A stretch of 64,000 nt of DNA from an uncultured bacterium (GTDB lineage Bacteria; Armatimonadota; Hebobacteria; CAIYQO01), in contig CAIYQO010000266.1 of assembly GCA_903928345.1 (NCBI GenBank), positions 2,029-66,028 of the forward strand. The letters run 5' to 3'. The notes under the pieces are model-generated. The model made no database searches, was not told the DNA's origin, and was given only the letters and a program-made list of their open reading frames with translations. Positions within the stretch are counted from its first letter, which is position 1. Each line of letters begins with the position of its first letter. Of the stretch, positions 33,299 to 40,267 are shown one piece after another. The position numbers and the translations under genes were made by a program.

Positions 33299-34453
33299 AT
33301 GCGCAAGGGCTTTACCCTGATCGAACTCCTTGTCGTGATAGCGATAATTGCTATCCTGGCCGCTATCCTTTTCCCCGTCTTCGCCAAGGCGCGCGAGAAG
33401 GCGCGGCAGACGGCGTGCATCAACAATCAGAAGCAGATCACCACCGCGACGCTGATGTATGCGCAGGACAACAACGAAATGCTCCCCGACGCCGGCAGCT
33501 TCTGGGGCGCGCTGAACATCGACCGCGGCGTGTTGAAGTGCCAGACGAAGAGCCGCCTCGCCAACGGCTACGTCTACTACAGCGCGATCTCCGGGCAGGC
33601 GCTGGGGAAGATCAACGCGCCGGAGAGCACCGCCCTGACGGGTGATGGGTTGCACAACGCCACGACGACCCCGCTCACCTATGACAACGTGGCCTACACC
33701 GACGCCGACTTCGATACCGCGCGCCACGGCGGCAAATATATCGTCTCCTTCGTCGACGGCCACCAGGAGCTGTACAGCACCGGCGTCTTCGGCAACGCGG
33801 CCGTCTTCGCGCTGGACGAAAACACCGGCACGTCGGCCGGCGACTCCAGCGGCAAAGGCGGCACCGGCACGCTCTTCAACACCGCCAGTTGGACCGCCGG
33901 GCATCTGGGCTACGCGGTGAAGTGCGACGGCAACAACAGCTACGTCGAAATCACCAACAACGCCAACCTGGAGAACGTGCAGGAAAGCAACTACACGCTG
34001 GCGGCGTGGTTCAAGCCCAACAGCAACCCCGCCGGCACCGGCTCCGCCAACAACGCCTGCTACGGCATCATCTGCAAGCAGGGGTACCATACCGGGCTCA
34101 CCTACAACAACGGCGGCACCTTTTCGATGTCGCAGTGGTATAACCCGGGGCCGGCGTGCGCGGGCGCCACGACAAGCGGCACCTACGCGCCGGGGAGCTG
34201 GTATCATGTGGCGGCCACCATCGACCGCACCAACGGCATCGTGAAGCTCTATGTCAACGGGACGCAGGACGGCACGAGCAGCTATACCAAGAACGCCGCC
34301 ATTTACGAGTACAACCAGATGCAGTGGCGCATCGGCATCGCGCAGCCCGGCGCCGGCACGTACCGCTGGTGCGCTGACGGCATCATCGACGACGCGCGCA
34401 TCTACAACAAGGCGCTCTCCGACGCGGAAGTCGCCTACCTCGCCGCGCAGTAA
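33299..34453 (+). CDS. prepilin-type N-terminal cleavage/methylation domain protein with LamG-like (concanavalin-type) domain
   Basis: [28 protein letters not shown] (type IV pilin-like N-terminus). C-terminal ...[24 protein letters not shown]...[16 protein letters not shown] (LamG-like). Confidence 0.8.
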
Positions 34454-34473
34454 GGCGCCGCGCTTCCCCCCCG

Positions 34474-34503
34474 CCCCGGCGGCACCGCCGGGGCGGGTTT
34501 TTT
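34474..34503 (+). terminator. intrinsic terminator
   Basis: CCCCGGCGG-CA-CCGCCGGGG stem followed by CGGGTTTTTTGT. Confidence 0.6.
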
Positions 34504-34534
34504 GTGGAGTCCACCTCCCGCGCGCGGGCACGAG

Positions 34535-34563
34535 TTGACAGCCGCCGTGCGCTCTGGTAGTGT
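34535..34563 (+). promoter_or_regulatory. candidate promoter TTGACA-17-TAGTGT upstream of the NSS transporter
   Basis: -35 at 34535-40 and -10 at 34558-63. Confidence 0.35.
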
Positions 34564-34596
34564 GATGATACTCTAAACGTGACTGAAGGCGTCGGT

Positions 34597-36237
34597 ATGA
34601 CACGTCGCAATGACGAGCACTGGGCGAGTCGGATGGGGGTCATCCTGGCGGTGGCGGGCAGCGCGATCGGGTTGGGGAGTTTTCTACGTTTCCCGACCCA
34701 GGCCGCGCAGTACGGCGGCGCGTTTCTCATCCCCTACCTGGTCGTCCTGCTCTTCATCGGGTTGCCGCTCATGTGGCTGGAGTGGTCCTTCGGCCGCTAC
34801 GGCGGCATTTGGGGCAAACACACCCTGCCCGGCATCTACGAAGCGGCCACCGGTAAAAGCTGGGCGCGCTATCTCGGCGTGCTCGGGCTCTACATCCCCT
34901 TCGTCATCGTCGTCTACTACCTCTACGTCGAGTCGTGGACGCTGGCCTACTCCTTCTTCACCGCCACGAACCAATTCGCCGAGGGGCATGGCGCGGCCGA
35001 CTACCTGCATACCTTCCGCGCCTTCCTGGGCATGAACGATGGCCGGTACGCCTTCTCCTGGCTCGCGGTCGGGGTGCTCGTGCTCACCCTCGTCATCAAC
35101 TTCGTCGTGGCGGCCCAGGACGAGCGCCGCGGCTTGGAGCGCCTCACCTCGGTGGCCATGCCGCTACTATTCCTGCTCTCCGTGGCGTTGGTGGTGCGCG
35201 TGTTCACTCTGCCCGGCGTCGAGGCGGGGCTGGGCCACTTGTGGAAGCCCGACCTGGGCAAGCTGGTGGCGCCCATGACCCTCTTCGGGCACACCTTCCC
35301 CTTCCTGGAACCGAAGGTCTGGCTGGCGGCGCTGGGGCAGGTCTTCTTTACCCTCAACCTGGGCCTCGGCACCGTGCTGGTGGGCGCCAGCTATCTGCGC
35401 AAGGACGACGACACCGCGCTCTCCGGCCTCACCGCGGTCTCGCTGAACGAATTCGGCGAGGTGGTCCTCGGCGCGAGCATCGCGCTACCGGCGGGCATCG
35501 CGCTCCTCGGCGCGTCGACGGTGCTGAAGGTCGCCGCCGACGGCCCGTATACGCTGGGCCTGGTGACCATCCCGCTCATCTTCGAGCGCATGCCCTTCGG
35601 CAGCATATTGGGCGCGGTATGGTTCGTGCTCATCTTCTTCGCCGCCGTGGGCGCCTCCATCGCGCTGCTGCAGCCGATCATCGGCTTTTTCGTGCACGAA
35701 ATCGGCTGGTCGCGGCGCAAGGCGACGATGACGCTGCTCGTCATGACGCTGCTGTATCTCGTCCCCGTGGTGCTCTTCCAACGGCAAGGCTTCATGGCGG
35801 AGATGGACTTCAACGCCGTCAACCTGCTGCTGGCCTTCGGGGCGCTGGTGGAGCTGATCATGTTCCTGGGCGTGTTGGGCATCGAGCGCGGCTGGCAAGG
35901 CATCACCGCCGGCGCCCGCCTGCGCCTGCCGCGCCTGTGGAAAAGCATTCTGTGTTACGTCACCCCCACGCTGCTGATCGTCATCCTGCTAAACTGGTTC
36001 GTGCAGGTCGGCGACGATGCCGCCACGCTGGTGGGGATACCGGACGAGTTCCGTAAGTTCCACATCCTGTCGCGCGTCTGCATGGCGGTGGCGCTGCTGG
36101 GGATGCTGCTGGTCGTGCGCGCGGCCTGGCGCCGCCCGCTGCCCGCGCCCGACGCGGGCCCCGAAGCGGACCTGGGCAGCCTACTCCCGCCGGACGACGC
36201 GCCGCTCATCGCCGAGGAGGTGCCCGGTGTCCACTGA
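34597..36237 (+). CDS. neurotransmitter:sodium symporter (NSS/SNF) family transporter
   Basis: HWASRMGVILAVAGSAIGLGSFLRFP NSS N-terminal signature and about 12 TM helices. ATG 34597 is preferred (RBS GAAGG) over the upstream GTG 34579. Confidence 0.85.
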   Translation: MTRRNDEHWASRMGVILAVAGSAIGLGSFLRFPTQAAQYGGAFLIPYLVVLLFIGLPLMWLEWSFGRYGGIWGKHTLPGIYEAATGKSWARYLGVLGLYIPFVIVVYYLYVESWTLAYSFFTATNQFAEGHGAADYLHTFRAFLGMNDGRYAFSWLAVGVLVLTLVINFVVAAQDERRGLERLTSVAMPLLFLLSVALVVRVFTLPGVEAGLGHLWKPDLGKLVAPMTLFGHTFPFLEPKVWLAALGQVFFTLNLGLGTVLVGASYLRKDDDTALSGLTAVSLNEFGEVVLGASIALPAGIALLGASTVLKVAADGPYTLGLVTIPLIFERMPFGSILGAVWFVLIFFAAVGASIALLQPIIGFFVHEIGWSRRKATMTLLVMTLLYLVPVVLFQRQGFMAEMDFNAVNLLLAFGALVELIMFLGVLGIERGWQGITAGARLRLPRLWKSILCYVTPTLLIVILLNWFVQVGDDAATLVGIPDEFRKFHILSRVCMAVALLGMLLVVRAAWRRPLPAPDAGPEADLGSLLPPDDAPLIAEEVPGVH

Positions 36238-36319
36238 CGCCCTGCTCTTCATGAGTATCACCTGGTGTAGCATTGCCCTGGTCACTTTCTACTGCCTGTG
36301 GCGGCTGGAAAAACGTTAG
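36227..36319 (+). CDS. 30-aa single-TM peptide overlapping the NSS stop (MetS-like small subunit candidate)
   Basis: GTG at 36227, preceded by GAGGAGG (36214-20). Translation VSTDALLFMSITWCSIALVTFYCLWRLEKR. Codon third positions are GC-biased as in genes. Confidence 0.4.
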   Translation: MSTDALLFMSITWCSIALVTFYCLWRLEKR

Positions 36320-36436
36320 CCACGCGCATGAAACTGCCGCGCGCCGGGTACGATACCCCAACGACGCGCCGCCCTGCCGCGTGTTGACCCGCCCTCCCCG
36401 CCGGGTCGCCCATTCCGAGAAGGAGAAGCTCCGCCG

Positions 36437-37291
36437 ATGCCGATATTTGCCGCGTCACCCCTGCCGGATGCCGCGCCGCCCAGCTTCTGGGTGGTCCAGA
36501 CGCTGCCGCACTTCTGGCTCTACGTGCTGGTCAGCACCGTGCTCTTCGTCGGCTTCATGGCCCTGCTGCACCAGTTGCCCGCGCGCGGCAAAAAATGGCT
36601 GATGCTCGGTACCACCTTCCTGGCCGGGTGCTACTTCGTGCTGGAATACTTCCTGCCCGTCCACAAGCTGGATGACGGCACCCTGGGGAACTTCATCACC
36701 CCGACGACGGACCCGGTCAATAACTTCATGATGATCGTGCTGTCGTGGCCGGTGCTGCTGGGCCTCATCAGCCTGGCGACCGTACACGGCACGCGCCTCG
36801 CGAAGGGCAAACCGGGGTGGCACAACAGCCTGGCCTTCTTCCTGGCGCTTATCGGCATGCTCGTGGTCGGCTTCTGGGCGGAGGGGCACGCCAACGCGCC
36901 CGCCGCCGTGCAATTCATTCACGACTCGCTCTATAACGGCCTGCTGGTGAACCTGGACTCCGCCATGTTCGCGCTGCTCGCCTTCTACATTGCCTCCGCC
37001 GCCTACCGCGCCTTCCGCATCCGCACCGCGGAGGCCGCGCTGCTGATGGTTTCCGCGCTGGTGGTGATGCTCGGTGTGGTGGGCGTGGGCGTGGCCATCA
37101 CCAGCCATATCCCCGAGAGTTCGAACTGGGCCTTCTTCCGGCTGGAAAATCTCTCCCTCTGGCTGCTCAAGTGGGTGAATATGCCCGGGCAGCGCGCGGT
37201 GATGATCGGCGTGGCGGTGGGCGCGCTGGCGATGGCGATCCGCCTGTGGCTCAGCCTGGAGCGCGGCGCCTTCTTTTCGGTGGAGGGGTAA
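36437..37291 (+). CDS. polytopic membrane protein (about 6 TM), uncharacterised
   Basis: 284 aa. RBS GAAGGAG. First of three tightly linked membrane-protein genes. Confidence 0.6.
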   Translation: MPIFAASPLPDAAPPSFWVVQTLPHFWLYVLVSTVLFVGFMALLHQLPARGKKWLMLGTTFLAGCYFVLEYFLPVHKLDDGTLGNFITPTTDPVNNFMMIVLSWPVLLGLISLATVHGTRLAKGKPGWHNSLAFFLALIGMLVVGFWAEGHANAPAAVQFIHDSLYNGLLVNLDSAMFALLAFYIASAAYRAFRIRTAEAALLMVSALVVMLGVVGVGVAITSHIPESSNWAFFRLENLSLWLLKWVNMPGQRAVMIGVAVGALAMAIRLWLSLERGAFFSVEG

Positions 37292-37294
37292 ACA

Positions 37295-38245
37295 ATGGGG
37301 CGTTTTCTCGATCTCATGCAGAATCTCGACCGCCGCATCATTTACCTGGTGATCGGCGTGTTGCTGGTAGTGGTGCTGCTCCTCGGCAAGTCGGAAACCG
37401 GCGTGGTGCTGGAGCCGACGCAGAAGTTCTTCGACTCGGTGCAGGCCGCGGATACCTCGCCGCAATCGCACAAGATCATCGTCGTCGGCGTCACCTTCGC
37501 CGCCAACACGCTGGCGGAGAACGGCAACCAGATGCGCGCGCTGGTGCGCCACTTGATGCTCACACACAAACGCTTTGCCGTCGTCGCGGTGGGCGAGCCG
37601 CAGGGCGCCGCCCAAGGCCCACGCATCGTGAAGGATCTGGCCGCGCAGTACGGGTACACCTACGGCACCGACTGGATCGACTTCGGCTACCAGCTCCCGT
37701 CGCTGGGCTTCTACAAGCTCTATACGAAGGACATTCCGAACGCCATCAAGGAAGACGGGCAACTGAAAAAGCCGATCGCCTCCTTCCCGATCATGGACGG
37801 GATCAAGACGGTGAGCGACAATGTCGCGATGCACGTGGAGATCACCGCGTCCTCCAGCGTCTTCGACTGGATTCAATACGTGCAGAACGCGACGCACTTG
37901 AAGATCGGGTATGCCTGTACCGGCGTGATGGCCTCGGAAGCCTACCCGCTGCTCGACTCCGGGCAAATCTCCGGGCTGATGGCCGGGCTGAAGGGCGCGG
38001 CGGACTACGAGCAGTTGACGGACAGCCTGGAGCAGGCACAGGTGCAGGCCGGCACGCGCAAGGCGATGTATGACCCGAAGGCCACCCCCAGCCTGCAGTT
38101 GCCGCAGCCGGCACGCATGTTGATGTTCACGCAAAGCGCCGCTCACCTGGCGATCATCATCTTTATCATCCTGGGCAACGTAGGCCTGTTGTTGTCGACG
38201 CGTCTCGCCCGCAAGAACGGAAAGGAGAGTTCCGCGCATGACTGA
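37295..38245 (+). CDS. bitopic membrane protein with large extracytoplasmic domain, uncharacterised
   Basis: 316 aa with N- and C-terminal TM segments. Starts 4 nt after the previous stop. Confidence 0.6.
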   Translation: MGRFLDLMQNLDRRIIYLVIGVLLVVVLLLGKSETGVVLEPTQKFFDSVQAADTSPQSHKIIVVGVTFAANTLAENGNQMRALVRHLMLTHKRFAVVAVGEPQGAAQGPRIVKDLAAQYGYTYGTDWIDFGYQLPSLGFYKLYTKDIPNAIKEDGQLKKPIASFPIMDGIKTVSDNVAMHVEITASSSVFDWIQYVQNATHLKIGYACTGVMASEAYPLLDSGQISGLMAGLKGAADYEQLTDSLEQAQVQAGTRKAMYDPKATPSLQLPQPARMLMFTQSAAHLAIIIFIILGNVGLLLSTRLARKNGKESSAHD

Positions 38246-39080
38246 CGACACGCAAGCACAACCGGTGCGCCGCCCGGACGGTGAAGAGTCTCCCCTGTGG
38301 ATCGGCGGGCTGCTCGCGCTGATGGTGGTGCTGGTGGTGATCGGCGCGGTCTTCGTCGCGCCCACCCAAGCCTATCACGGGCCGTGGATCACCGTCCTCG
38401 GCGTCATCGCGACGCTGGGCATCTTCTCCATCCTGTACAAGGAGAACCCGCTCTTTCGCTTCTTCGAGCACATCTATATCGGGTTGGCGACGGCTTTCGG
38501 TATCTATTTTCTTTGGAACGACTTCATGATGGCGCACTGGTGGCAGCCGATGTTGCCCAAAATGGCCTCCAATCCGGCTGGCCAGGGGCAGTGGTGGCTG
38601 ATCTTCACCTTGCTCATCGGGGGGCTATTCTTCACCGTCTACTTCGCGAAGATTACCTGGATGAACCGCTTCATCATCGGCGTGCTGATGGGCTGGGGCG
38701 CGGGGTATGCCTTCTCCGCCTTCATGAGCCTCATCGCCCCGCAGCTCACCGCCTCCTTCCGCCCGCCGGTGTCGCACGAGTCGATGGTGGCCGTGGGGAT
38801 GACCAAGGAAAACAACTTCCCGTGGCACGGCCTGTACTGGCACCCGTGGCTGCTCATTTCGCTCATCGTGCTGCTCTGCGTGATGGCGTACTTTTTCTTC
38901 TCCGTGGAGCACCGCTCGGGACTCATCAAGCACCCCGCCATCGCCGGGCGCTACTTCCTGATGATCACCCTGGGCGCCATCTTCGGCACCACGGTAATGA
39001 GCCGCTTCACGCTCCTCATCGGCCGCCTCGACTTCCTCATCCACGCGGTGAAGGACCTGCTGGCGGCGATACACCACTAA
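38238..39080 (+). CDS. polytopic membrane protein (about 7 TM), uncharacterised
   Basis: 280 aa. Overlaps the previous gene by 8 nt. Confidence 0.6.
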   Translation: MTDDTQAQPVRRPDGEESPLWIGGLLALMVVLVVIGAVFVAPTQAYHGPWITVLGVIATLGIFSILYKENPLFRFFEHIYIGLATAFGIYFLWNDFMMAHWWQPMLPKMASNPAGQGQWWLIFTLLIGGLFFTVYFAKITWMNRFIIGVLMGWGAGYAFSAFMSLIAPQLTASFRPPVSHESMVAVGMTKENNFPWHGLYWHPWLLISLIVLLCVMAYFFFSVEHRSGLIKHPAIAGRYFLMITLGAIFGTTVMSRFTLLIGRLDFLIHAVKDLLAAIHH

Positions 39081-39081
39081 G

Positions 39082-39160
39082 CGTTCCACGTTCCACGTTC
39101 CAAGTTCAACGGGATGACCGACTTGCGTATCGCGTTGAACCTTGAACGTGGAACGTGGAA
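39082..39160. repeat. near-perfect 29-bp stem hairpin built from (GTTCCAC)3
   Basis: CGTTCCACGTTCCACGTTCCAAGTTCAACG ... CGTTGAACCTTGAACGTGGAACGTGGAAC. Starts 1 nt after the stop of 38238..39080. Confidence 0.55.
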
Positions 39161-39180
39161 CTCGTCCGAAGGACGCTTGC

Positions 39181-39705
39181 ATGCTCGACCGTTTTCGCCC
39201 ACATCGCCTGGCCCGCCGGCTGGAGGAAGTCGACATCGCCGATCTCCTCGCCCGCGGGGTGCAGGGGGTGATCCTCGACCTGGATAACACGCTAACGCTG
39301 TGGAAAAGCACCGCGGTGACACCCGCGGTAGTGGCGTGGGTCACGCGGCTGCGCGCGCAGGGGCTGCAGGCGTGCGTGCTGAGCAATGCCGCCGGCGCGC
39401 GGCGCGTGCGCGTGGTGGCCGACGCGCTGGGCCTCCCGTGGATCACCCGCGCGGGCAAACCGCTGCCACGCGGCTTTCGCCAGGCGATGACGCGCATGGG
39501 CACCACCCCGGAAACTACCGTCGCCATCGGCGACCAGGTCTTCACCGACGTATGGGGCGGCAACCGCCTCGGCCTCTACACCATCCTCCTCGACCCCACC
39601 TCGCCCCACGAATCGTGGTTCACCAAACTCGTGCAACGCAACCTGGAGCGCGCCATCGGCCGCATTGCCAAAGACGACGCGGCGCCGACGGCGGGGGCGC
39701 GCTAA
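39181..39705 (+). CDS. YqeG-type HAD-IIIA phosphatase
   Basis: Start MLDRFRP. DLDNTLT motif I and GDQVFTDVWGGN motif. Confidence 0.7.
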   Translation: MLDRFRPHRLARRLEEVDIADLLARGVQGVILDLDNTLTLWKSTAVTPAVVAWVTRLRAQGLQACVLSNAAGARRVRVVADALGLPWITRAGKPLPRGFRQAMTRMGTTPETTVAIGDQVFTDVWGGNRLGLYTILLDPTSPHESWFTKLVQRNLERAIGRIAKDDAAPTAGAR

Positions 39706-39795
39706 CACTTATCCGCAACGCCAGCACCCTACCCAGAGAAACATCCAGTTTGCCACATGCAGGTATGCTCCGGTACAGGCATTCCGTGCTCGAGC

Positions 39796-39832
39796 CTGCA
39801 ATCCGCATTCTGCAATCCGCATTCCGCAATCT
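39796..39832. repeat. tandem GCAATCCGCATT(C) units. An inverted copy lies at 41203-41232, on the other side of argF.
   Basis: CTGCAATCCGCATTCTGCAATCCGCATTCCGCAATC here and GATTGCGGATTGTAGATTGCGGAATGCGGATT at 41203-41232 share the 19-mer AATCCGCATTCCGCAATCT in inverted orientation. Confidence 0.4.
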
Positions 39833-39888
39833 TTCGACCCACCGACCCTTCCGCGAACACAAACGGCCGACCACCTTCTGCCTTGCCC

Positions 39889-39917
39889 TTGGCATCCTTT
39901 CCGTTGCCGAGTACAAT
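39889..39917 (+). promoter_or_regulatory. sigma70 consensus-like promoter TTGGCA-17-TACAAT (argF operon)
   Basis: -35 at 39889-94 and -10 at 39912-17. Confidence 0.45.
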
Positions 39918-39922
39918 AAGGC

Positions 39923-40267
39923 GTGCAAGATGCGACGGTATTGATGTTGGGCGTGACGGCGGTAGCGCTGCTGCTGGTGAGCTACCTGCTGTACCTGCGG
40001 CTCGGATCCGAAGGGGCGTCGCCGCGGCGCCTCCGGTGGACGATAGCGGAGCTGTGGGTGACCTTTGCCCTCATTGCCACCGCCTTTGTCGTCGCGCGTC
40101 ACCTGCTGGGCGCCGGCGAGCTGCTCGAGCTGCTCAGCCATGCCCGCGCGTTGCCGCTGCCCGAGCAGGTCGCCATCTACGGGCTGCTGCTCATCGGCGT
40201 GCTGCTCTTTGTCCATCTGCTGCTCACGCTGCGCCCAGCGAAGCCAAGGGAGGATCACCATGACTAG
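39923..40267 (+). CDS. small 3-TM membrane protein upstream of argF (GTG start; alternative ATG at 39944)
   Basis: Hydrophobic 107-114 aa. GC3-rich codons. The stop overlaps the argF start. Confidence 0.35.
   Translation: MQDATVLMLGVTAVALLLVSYLLYLRLGSEGASPRRLRWTIAELWVTFALIATAFVVARHLLGAGELLELLSHARALPLPEQVAIYGLLLIGVLLFVHLLLTLRPAKPREDHHD

What the first reader, a model, noticed from the sequence alone, without database searches (positions are those of the whole stretch)
36437..39080. Tightly coupled three-gene membrane-protein operon of unknown function downstream of the NSS transporter
Three consecutive genes encode a 6-TM protein, a bitopic protein with a large outward domain, and a 7-TM protein. 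Their starts and stops are 4 nt apart or overlap by 8 nt, so they appear translationally coupled. The operon ends in a 29-bp-stem hairpin. No family motif was recognised. Possibly a novel transporter or membrane complex functionally linked to the NSS gene.
Basis: inference. Interest (0 to 1): 0.55.

Follow-up and report, generated by a model that had tools for sequence, protein, structure and literature searches.

The report
Conserved three-gene membrane module, function unknown
Three tightly coupled membrane-protein genes are real and belong to a large, widespread gene set (normally a four-gene cluster with a DUF6754 protein) that matched no characterised protein family or solved structure in the searches I could run, so this is a genuine piece of unexplored membrane biology and not a known transporter.

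Summary
Three coding ORFs lie on the + strand: A 36437-37291, B 37295-38245, C 38238-39080. They are 3 nt apart (A/B) and overlap by 8 nt (B/C). Each has a Shine-Dalgarno site, and a 33-nt-arm hairpin follows C.

None of the three matches any Pfam, NCBIfam or PADLOC model, or any PDB sequence. The confident model of B is a Rossmann-like ectodomain held by two TM helices, and it has no significant solved structural relative.

The triad is ancient and common. A-B-C occur in that order in about 85 of 88 loci, from Armatimonadota, Fervidibacter, WOR-3, Cloacimonadota, Eisenbacteria, TA06, Poribacteria and others. The B family has 5,320 clusters at 50% identity.

In 75 of those 88 loci a fourth gene, DUF6754 (D), sits directly upstream. 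Some loci add a GlmL/MutL-type ASKHA ATPase and a barrel-sandwich protein. The window's clade lacks an adjacent D. In 6 of its 10 loci a LeuT-like NSS gene plus a 30-aa ORF sit directly upstream of A instead.

Best reading (inferred, about 0.4): A-B-C is the membrane core of an undescribed multi-subunit translocation system. The link to NSS is lineage-specific co-expression, not an obligate partnership.

The parts
36437..37291 (+). Gene A: polytopic membrane protein, 284 aa. It has 7 hydrophobic segments here; the family core has 6 TM. Conserved motifs are LAF(F/Y)IASAAYRAFR(A/I)R and (L/G)(S/I)(L/I)ER at the C-terminus. Invariant residues are P74, S131, F178, A182, F183, A188, P226 and G258.
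   Evidence: ORF. Hydropathy. Family alignment A3. An iterated HMM finds it in 85 of 88 loci, always just upstream of B. No Pfam, NCBIfam or PDB match.
37295..38245 (+). Gene B: 316 aa. It has an invariant cytoplasmic DRR motif, then TM1, an extracytoplasmic Rossmann-like alpha/beta domain (6 strands) of about 240 aa, and a long C-terminal TM helix carrying invariant H284, G294 and N295. A conserved GLKGAA(D/E)YE loop follows strand 6.
   Evidence: ORF. Alignment A1. AF2 model with pLDDT 93.4 and pTM 0.88. Foldseek against PDB gave nothing at E <= 0.001; the best hits were LOG/PpnN/YjeF-like Rossmann folds at E about 0.01-0.08 and TM <= 0.32. There are 5,320 family clusters. Termini are placed inside by the charge distribution. 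A CARDB insert in homologue P0434 fits an outside location for the domain.
38238..39080 (+). Gene C: polytopic membrane protein, 280 aa, about 7 helices. This clade has an extra N-terminal TM. Motifs are LYK(E/D)NPxY(K/R)xxEH, YFFFSxEH and GAxFGxTVMxRxxLLIxR.
   Evidence: ORF. Alignments A4 and A6. Found in 84 of 88 loci downstream of B. The AF2 model is of low confidence (pLDDT 70.8, pTM 0.36). No PDB fold or sequence match. A natural B-C fusion, P0384, exists.
39083..39161 (+). Long imperfect hairpin right after the stop of C, with 33-nt arms and a 13-nt loop. It probably marks the 3' end of the transcript, as a terminator or stabiliser without a U-tract.
   Evidence: -55.4 kcal/mol, z -8.3. 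Unrelated long hairpins sit at the same position after C in L005 (34-nt arms), L090 (27 nt), L091 (18 nt) and L088 (17-nt palindrome). The only Rfam match is a chance, sub-threshold miRNA hairpin match.
34579..36237 (+). Context: LeuT-type NSS (SNF) Na+-coupled amino-acid symporter gene. It is probably co-transcribed with A-B-C in this window.
   Evidence: Pfam SNF at 9.4e-41. LeuT (2a65 and others) at E about 1e-104 over residues 12-474. Orthologues sit upstream of A-B-C in L005, L088, L089, L090 and L091 only.
36227..36319 (+). Context: 30-aa single-TM ORF with a GTG start that overlaps the NSS stop by 11 nt. It is a candidate MetS-like small subunit of the NSS transporter.
   Evidence: Sequence read. 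A 30-aa gene is called at the same place in L005, L088, L089 and L091. The MetS_like_NSS match is sub-threshold (13.8-15 bits against a cut-off of 25).
34470..34497 (+). Context: canonical intrinsic terminator (12-bp GC stem followed by TTTTTT) upstream of NSS. It marks the likely 5' boundary of the NSS-small-A-B-C transcription unit.
   Evidence: No significant structure or inverted repeat lies between 36319 and 36437.

Best explanation
A, B and C are subunits of one heteromeric inner-membrane complex. That complex is the conserved membrane core of a widespread, so far undescribed multi-subunit system. In most lineages the system is encoded as DUF6754(D)-A-B-C, and some loci add a small membrane protein E, a 2-TM protein F, a GlmL/MutL-type ASKHA ATPase and a barrel-sandwich protein G.

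Proposed working (inferred). The two polytopic subunits A and C form a translocation pathway for a solute, an ion or an envelope precursor. B is clamped in the membrane by its two TM helices and presents a Rossmann-like domain on the outer face. The conserved crevice of that domain (E75, G131/Y132, T209, GLKGAA loop) binds the ligand or a partner. The many conserved cytoplasmic loop motifs of A and C, and the DRR motif of B, dock a cytoplasmic partner. Elsewhere that partner would be the cytoplasmic domain of D.

In the window's Armatimonadota clade the triad has no adjacent D. It is probably transcribed together with a LeuT-like amino-acid:Na+ symporter and its 30-aa partner. That reflects lineage-specific co-expression, not an obligate NSS accessory role.

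Shown: the genes are real, the order and coupling are conserved, the distribution is wide, no homology to known families was detected, and the fold class and topology of B are as described. Inferred: physical complex formation, translocation function, ligand binding by B, and docking of a cytoplasmic partner.
For: Gene reality and coupling.

Conserved A-B-C order on one strand: found in 85, 87 and 84 of 88 loci from more than 10 phyla. Junctions are overlapping or nearly abutting in every called locus.

Evidence for a physical complex: a natural B-C fusion protein exists (P0384; P0064 appears in both the B and the C hit lists).

Fourth gene: D sits immediately upstream in 75 of 88 loci. D has an N-terminal TM, a highly conserved soluble region placed in the cytoplasm by the positive-inside rule, and a C-terminal TM.

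Extended set: the order F-E-MutL-G-D-A-B-C is seen or inferred from loci L015, L047 and L069.

B model: pLDDT 93.4, two TM helices and a 6-stranded alpha/beta domain. Invariant residues fall at the C-terminal ends of strands 1, 3, 5 and 6, the usual ligand crevice of Rossmann-like folds.

Polar residues in or near the membrane are invariant or nearly so: B H284 and N295; A H117 and R191; C N70, E77, H78, R144 and R256.

Ectodomain additions fit a surface-facing machine: a weakly Fn3-like region (PDB profile E 0.011-0.025) and long unassigned extensions in D, a CARDB insert in B, and a 200-aa insert in Fervidibacter C.

Transcription unit: a terminator lies before NSS, none lies between NSS and A, and the hairpin follows C.
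Against: There is no functional datum of any kind. No homology to a transporter of known mechanism was found.

C alone folds with low confidence, and A was not modelled, so a pore or pathway is not demonstrated.

No ATPase or other energising gene lies in the window, and D, E, F, G and MutL are all absent from its 64 kb. The docking partner in this lineage is therefore unknown.

Conserved polar residues in the membrane could equally serve catalysis or subunit packing.

The Rossmann-like ectodomain gave only weak, generic structural matches.
Confidence: 0.4

Rival explanations
1. A-B-C is a non-transport envelope complex, either an enzyme or a scaffold. The outward Rossmann-like domain of B would act on or bind an envelope precursor such as a lipid-linked sugar, a nucleotide-like head group or a surface polymer. 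A and C would anchor or position it.
For: The ectodomain of B gives its best, though weak, structural matches to LOG/PpnN/YjeF-type nucleotide- or sugar-phosphate-handling Rossmann folds. It also has a glycine-rich GLKGAA loop typical of phosphate or anion binding. Partners carry surface-type additions: a weakly Fn3-like region (E 0.011-0.025) and long unassigned extensions in D, a CARDB insert in B, and a large insert in Fervidibacter C. The family is restricted to particular phyla.
Against: No catalytic motif was identified. The structural matches are not significant (E >= 0.009, TM <= 0.32). No envelope-synthesis genes are conserved next to the cluster in the neighbour clustering.
Confidence: 0.3
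2. A-B-C are accessory or regulatory subunits of the neighbouring LeuT-like NSS transporter, or a partner transporter in the same pathway.
For: NSS plus the 30-aa ORF lie directly upstream of A-B-C in 6 of 10 loci of the window's clade, although the outer flanks differ. In the window there is no terminator between them, and the unit is bounded by a terminator and a hairpin.
Against: NSS is missing from 4 of 10 clade loci (L006, L008, P0036's contig, L092). In three of these (L006, L008, P0036's contig) a divergent gene sits upstream of A, and in L092 only a 40-aa ORF intervenes. NSS is missing from all 84 loci outside the clade. The triad is conserved across phyla with a different neighbour, D. 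The gap between the small ORF and A is 117 nt here and up to about 460 nt elsewhere, so these genes are not translationally coupled. All family-invariant residues of A, B and C are retained, which argues for the ancestral function.
Confidence: 0.1
3. The triad is a highly diverged member of a known multi-subunit membrane system with the same parts list. Candidates are ABC-2 with a GldG-like auxiliary protein, ECF-type CbiM/CbiN/CbiQ, or NqrC/D/E (RnfG/A/E).
For: The architecture is parallel: two polytopic subunits of about 200 aa flank a TM-anchored subunit with an outward domain. In other phyla a barrel-sandwich protein gives weak RnfC_N and NQRA_N hits and sits upstream.
Against: No Pfam hit to ABC2_membrane, ABC_transp_aux, CbiM, CbiQ, Rnf-Nqr or FMN_bind, even at E <= 10, across 26-28 members of each family. 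A and C are not homologous to each other, unlike NqrD/NqrE or RnfA/RnfE. No ABC ATPase is conserved nearby. No conserved Cys, flavinylation or Walker motifs appear in the alignments.
Confidence: 0.1

Closest known systems
DUF6754 (PF20539) gene clusters, an uncharacterised Pfam family
   Same: A, B and C are the invariable downstream partners of DUF6754 genes in 75 of 88 loci examined. The window's A, B and C keep all family-invariant residues.
   Different: The window and its clade have no DUF6754 gene next to the triad or anywhere in the 64 kb. A and C carry an extra N-terminal TM, and B carries a 30-aa insert. DUF6754 itself has no known function, and no paper mentions it.
GldF/GldG-type ABC-2 permease plus auxiliary protein
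   Same: A roughly 6-TM permease-like protein is encoded next to a protein with N- and C-terminal TM anchors and a large outward alpha/beta domain. This comparison rests on architecture from established knowledge of the Gld system.
   Different: No sequence match to ABC2_membrane or ABC_transp_aux. No ABC ATPase gene is conserved nearby. A second, unrelated polytopic subunit (C) is present.
Na+-NQR / RNF membrane subunits (NqrC/D/E with NqrA)
   Same: The parts list is similar: two 6-TM subunits of about 200 aa, a TM-anchored subunit with a periplasmic domain, a subunit with a cytoplasmic domain, and, in other phyla, a cytoplasmic barrel-sandwich protein with weak RnfC_N/NQRA_N similarity.
   Different: No Rnf-Nqr or FMN_bind match. 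A and C are not paralogues of each other. No conserved cysteines or flavinylation motif. No redox genes in the clusters.
ECF-type CbiM/CbiN/CbiQ metal transporters
   Same: The gene order is polytopic, then 2-TM hairpin protein, then polytopic, with tight coupling.
   Different: CbiN has only a short loop and not a 240-aa domain (established knowledge). No CbiM or CbiQ Pfam match. No CbiO ATPase.

Membership tests
   Window coordinates. HMM hits and order across 88 loci.
   No D hit in the window, even at E <= 10, nor in clade loci L005, L006, L008 and L088-L091. Whether D lies elsewhere in the genome could not be tested.
ABC-2 permease / GldG auxiliary set | An ABC2_membrane-type permease domain and an ABC_transp_aux domain. 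| tested here: not met
   These families did not appear among the Pfam matches at E <= 10 for A, C or B family members, nor at E <= 1 for the window proteins.
ABC-2 permease / GldG auxiliary set | An ABC ATPase gene in the same operon. | tested here: not met
   The operon content is NSS, small ORF, A, B and C. No conserved ATPase neighbour appeared in the neighbour clustering.
ECF / CbiMNQO | CbiM and CbiQ/EcfT domains plus a CbiO ATPase. | tested here: not met
Na+-NQR / RNF | Homologous Rnf-Nqr 6-TM subunit pair, and an FMN_bind periplasmic subunit with an SGAT flavinylation motif. | tested here: not met
   No Pfam hits. hhalign of A against C gave probability 0.5%. No such motif in alignment A1.
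NSS (SLC6/LeuT) transporter (upstream gene only) | SNF domain with full-length similarity to LeuT. | tested here: met
   Pfam SNF at 9.4e-41. LeuT at E about 1e-104 over residues 12-474.
MetS-family NSS small subunit (30-aa ORF) | A match to NF033493 at its cut-off. A single TM. Translational coupling to the NSS gene. | tested here: inconclusive
   13.8-15 bits against a cut-off of 25. The position and an 11-nt overlap are conserved at least in L005, and a 30-aa gene is called there in four further loci.
Intrinsic (Rho-independent) terminator | A GC-rich hairpin followed by a U-tract. | tested here: inconclusive
   The hairpin is strong, but no T-run follows it, so the consensus scan did not report it. 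Analogous hairpins follow C in relatives.
Anti-phage defence systems (PADLOC) | A match to any defence-system protein model. | tested here: not met
   Only a chance-level KwaA hit, E 0.016 at 13 bits, in a TM segment.

The most novel reading that the evidence does not exclude
A-B-C, together with DUF6754 and in many lineages a GlmL/MutL-type ASKHA ATPase and an NqrA-like barrel-sandwich protein, constitutes a new class of multi-subunit membrane machine. It would be a primary, ATP-driven translocator or ion pump unrelated to ABC, P-, F/V-type or NQR/RNF systems. The window holds a stripped-down version that works without an adjacent DUF6754 subunit and has been recruited next to a Na+-coupled amino-acid symporter.
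Probability: 0.15. Interest if true: 0.85.

Novelty: categorically new. Interest (0 to 1): 0.6.

Why it matters
The B family alone has about 5,300 clusters at 50% identity. The GLKGAA[ED]YE pattern matched at least 593 stretches that tblastn confirmed as B relatives, in a collection holding one genome per species. Even so, A, B and C carry no Pfam or NCBIfam model, no solved structural relative and no literature. The only named component, DUF6754, is found in at least 6,900 clusters at 90% identity and is mentioned in no searchable paper.

A conserved four-gene to eight-gene membrane system with outward and inward alpha/beta domains, sometimes linked to an ASKHA ATPase, could be a new kind of transporter or envelope machine. 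It occurs in phyla that are mostly uncultured (Armatimonadota, WOR-3, Cloacimonadota and others).

Fervidibacter sacchari PD1 carries the full E-D-A-B-C locus (L011). From my own knowledge it is a cultured isolate, so the question would be experimentally testable. The D-less, NSS-linked variant in this window is a natural experiment on which subunits are dispensable.

Tried and rejected
Pfam, NCBIfam and PADLOC scans of A, B and C gave nothing meaningful. Scanning 26-28 diverse members of each family individually at E <= 10 gave only scattered hydrophobic noise. The one recurrent hit was DUF3704 in 8 of 26 C proteins at E >= 0.005, which I judged noise.

Sequence and profile searches of A, B, C, D and G against PDB found nothing except weak Fn3-like hits in the N-terminal ectodomain of D.

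hhalign of A against C and of B against D detected no paralogy. I had suspected that B and D share a fold, because both have the pattern TM, then six beta-alpha units, then TM. That suspicion stays unproven.

I looked for D, E, F, G and MutL-like genes in the window and found none. I tried to find D on the same contigs as clade members by matching contig lengths in the D hit list. None of the top 120 matched, which is inconclusive.

Pfam scans of long or fused homologues found only one CARDB insert and no informative domains. Rfam found nothing real in 34000-40200. The hairpin motif GTTCCACGTTCCA is not a dispersed repeat in the window. Literature searches for DUF6754, PF13941 and GlmL/ASKHA found nothing relevant.

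A secreted 365-392-aa protein encoded divergently upstream in several clade loci has no homologue in the window.
Full report
**1. The observation**

Three ORFs lie head to tail on the + strand: A 36437-37291 (284 aa), B 37295-38245 (316 aa) and C 38238-39080 (280 aa).
- A ends with TAA at 37289-37291 and B starts at 37295.
- B and C overlap in ATGACTGA.
- Each start is preceded by a Shine-Dalgarno-like site 8-11 nt upstream.
- GC3 is 0.88-0.91 against GC2 of about 0.40, as in the flanking genes.
- A hairpin with 33-nt arms (39083-39115 / 39129-39161) follows the stop of C. It folds at -55.4 kcal/mol, z = -8.3, and has no T-tract.

B has two TM helices, one at each end, so it is not bitopic. 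A has seven hydrophobic segments in this lineage, not six.

**2. No known family**

- Pfam, NCBIfam and PADLOC give nothing for A, B or C.
- Scanning 26-28 diverse homologues of each protein one by one at E <= 10 gives no consistent family.
- phmmer and profile searches against all PDB chain sequences give nothing.
- The AF2 model of B is confident (pLDDT 93.4, pTM 0.88). It shows an N-terminal TM helix, a six-stranded Rossmann-like alpha/beta domain and a 40-residue C-terminal helix.
- Foldseek of that model against PDB has no hit at E <= 0.001. The best hits are generic Rossmann folds (YjeF-like, PpnN/LOG-like, MoCo carrier) at E 0.009-0.08 and TM <= 0.32.
- The AF2 model of C is poor (pLDDT 70.8, pTM 0.36) and matches nothing.

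**3. The triad is an ancient, widespread module**

B has 151 word-sharing relatives, all 'hypothetical' and without Pfam domains. An exhaustive profile search finds 5,320 clusters at 50% identity with E <= 1e-3.

The peptide pattern GLKGAA[ED]YE matched 599 stretches in a collection of one genome per species, and 593 of them were confirmed as relatives. They come from Armatimonadota, Fervidibacter (including the complete genome of F. sacchari PD1), WOR-3, Cloacimonadota, Eisenbacteria, TA06, Coatesbacteria, Poribacteria, WS1, Stahlbacteria and Fermentibacteraceae.

I built iterated HMMs from the window's A, B and C and searched 88 sources (87 loci plus the window).
- A was found in 85, B in 87 and C in 84, always in the order A-B-C on one strand.
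- Seeds from the window and from a WOR-3 locus converged on identical sets of hits.
- Junctions overlap or nearly abut in every gene-called locus.
- A natural B-C fusion exists (P0384).
- A and C are not detectably related to each other.

**4. The larger system**

In 75 of the 88 loci a DUF6754 gene (D) sits immediately upstream of A (Pfam confirmed).
- D has one TM. In many lineages this follows a signal peptide and an ectodomain, which is weakly Fn3-like and reaches about 1,000 aa in Cloacimonadota.
- Next comes a very conserved region of about 200 aa (40-52% identity across phyla, 35 invariant positions). The positive-inside rule places it in the cytoplasm.
- D ends with a C-terminal TM.
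- D has at least 6,913 clusters at 90% identity and no literature.

Other genes also recur.
- E is a protein of about 110 aa, found in 22 loci and directly upstream of D in Chthonomonadales and Fervidibacter-type loci.
- F is a 2-TM protein found in 8 loci.
- A 600-aa GlmL/MutL-type ASKHA ATPase (PF13941, E 1e-123 to 1e-128) is found in 12 loci.
- G is a 375-aa barrel-sandwich protein with Biotin_lipoyl and weak RnfC_N/NQRA_N hits, found in 14 loci.
- The order E-MutL-G-D-A-B-C is seen directly in L069. Placing F at the front is inferred from L015, where F and E lie further upstream of MutL.
- WOR-3 locus L069 carries two tandem D-A-B-C sets.
- Two MAGs carry one D-A-B-C locus and one D-less A-B-C locus each.

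**5. What is special about the window**

None of D, E, F, G or MutL is present in the 64 kb.

In a neighbour-joining tree of B, the window groups with L005, L006, L008 and L088-L091 in one clade. That clade is sister to the Chthonomonadales/Fervidibacter-type E-D-A-B-C loci. No D was detected at any of these clade loci, and none was called in P0036's contig or L092.

In 6 of the 10 clade loci examined, a LeuT-like NSS gene sits directly upstream of A while the outer flanks differ (window, L005, L088, L089, L090, L091). The window's NSS matches LeuT at E about 1e-104. A 30-aa single-TM ORF follows the NSS gene in five of these loci and was not called in L090. In the window and L005 it overlaps the NSS stop by 11 nt.

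In L006, L008, P0036's contig and L092 there is no NSS. In the first three a divergently transcribed gene lies upstream of A; in L092 only a 40-aa ORF intervenes. No NSS is found in the other 84 loci.

In the window the unit NSS-small-A-B-C is bounded by a canonical terminator at 34470-34497 and by the hairpin after C. No significant structure lies in the 117-nt spacer before A. Long, unrelated hairpins follow C in four relatives. Co-transcription with NSS is therefore likely here, but the association is lineage-specific and dispensable.

**6. Mechanistic reading**

*Shown.*
- The order and coupling are conserved, and a B-C fusion exists. Both are typical of subunits of one complex.
- The charged termini of B (invariant DRR before TM1, Arg/Lys after TM2) place its alpha/beta domain outside. 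A CARDB insert in one homologue agrees with this.
- The invariant residues of B sit at the C-terminal ends of strands 1, 3, 5 and 6 (E75, G131/Y132, T209, GLKGAA). This is where Rossmann-like folds bind ligands.
- Invariant or nearly invariant polar residues lie in or next to TM helices: B H284 and N295; A H117 and R191; C N70, E77, H78, R144 and R256.
- A and C have several conserved loop motifs that the positive-inside rule places in the cytoplasm: YRAFRxR and ERSYL in A, and YKDNPxYKxAEH, RxxPKxxWxSR and SxEHKG in C.

*Inferred.*
- A and C form a translocation pathway.
- B is the outward ligand- or partner-binding subunit.
- The cytoplasmic motifs dock the cytoplasmic domain of D, and through it G and the ATPase where these are present.
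- In the window's clade the same core works without an adjacent D.

I put about 0.4 on this translocation reading. I put about 0.3 on a non-transport envelope enzyme or scaffold, about 0.1 on an NSS accessory role, and about 0.1 on a very diverged member of a known system.

**7. Comparison with known systems**

By architecture the triad recalls GldF/GldG (ABC-2 plus auxiliary protein), CbiM/N/Q and NqrC/D/E. Every defining feature that could be tested failed:
- no domain matches;
- no ATPase partner;
- no paralogy between the two polytopic subunits;
- no cofactor motifs.

The only family it can be filed under is the uncharacterised DUF6754-linked module, and it lacks that module's name-giving gene.

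**8. Verdict**

The triad is a real, conserved and entirely uncharacterised membrane module. It has not been assigned to any known kind of system, and its function is unknown.

Interest is 0.6. It is a large 'dark' family with a testable genetic architecture and a cultured carrier, but there is no functional evidence yet.

Noticed in passing
window 36227-36319 (+): A 30-aa single-TM ORF (MSTDALLFMSITWCSIALVTFYCLWRLEKR) starts at a GTG that overlaps the NSS stop by 11 nt. A 30-aa gene is called at the same position after the NSS gene in L005, L088, L089 and L091. It gives only a sub-threshold match to the MetS-family NSS small-subunit model.
   Followed up: partly
window 39142-39705 (+): The YqeG-family HAD phosphatase ORF is listed from a TTG at 39142, which lies inside the 3' arm of the hairpin. 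An in-frame ATG at 39181 preceded by GAAGGA is the more likely start, which would put the hairpin wholly in the intergenic space. A similar phosphatase also follows C in L088.
   Followed up: partly
window 34470-34497 (+): A textbook intrinsic terminator (12-bp GC stem plus TTTTTT) follows the prepilin-type LamG protein gene (33299-34453). This contrasts with the U-less long hairpin after gene C.
   Followed up: no
L069:1394-12197 (WOR-3 scaffold JBDRZU010000001.1): Two complete tandem DUF6754-A-B-C sets are preceded by E, a PF13941 ASKHA ATPase and protein G. The whole block lies between a glycine-cleavage P-protein gene and a lipoate-protein ligase gene.
   Followed up: partly
L001:9469-14363 and L003:9457-12311: In six WOR-3-type loci the module is followed by a PATAN (DUF4388) protein and four small unannotated genes. 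In the WOR-3 loci L001 and L002 these are followed by ExbB/ExbD/TonB; a TonB-dependent receptor gene follows in L001-L004. Any relation to the module is unknown.
   Followed up: no
L026 and L058 (Coatesbacteria MAG Zod_Metabat.53); L029 and L080 (MAG binchicken_co219_312): Each of these genomes holds one D-A-B-C locus and one D-less A-B-C locus. So D-less triads also occur outside the window's clade and can coexist with a full set.
   Followed up: partly
L011:10845-12092 (Fervidibacter sacchari PD1): Fervidibacter C proteins carry an insert of about 200 aa in the loop after the second helix. It has no Pfam match and its composition looks like a beta-sandwich. Cloacimonadota D proteins carry N-terminal extensions of about 700 aa with no Pfam match.
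   Followed up: partly
L005, L006, L008, L089, L090 and P0036's contig, upstream of [NSS]-A-B-C: A block of divergently transcribed genes recurs upstream of the triad in the window's clade but is absent from the window. A secreted 365-392-aa protein without Pfam match is confirmed by phmmer in L005, L006, L089 and L090 and looks the same by position and size in L008 and P0036's contig. It is accompanied in some of these loci by an MFS transporter, DUF4178 and FtsH.
   Followed up: partly
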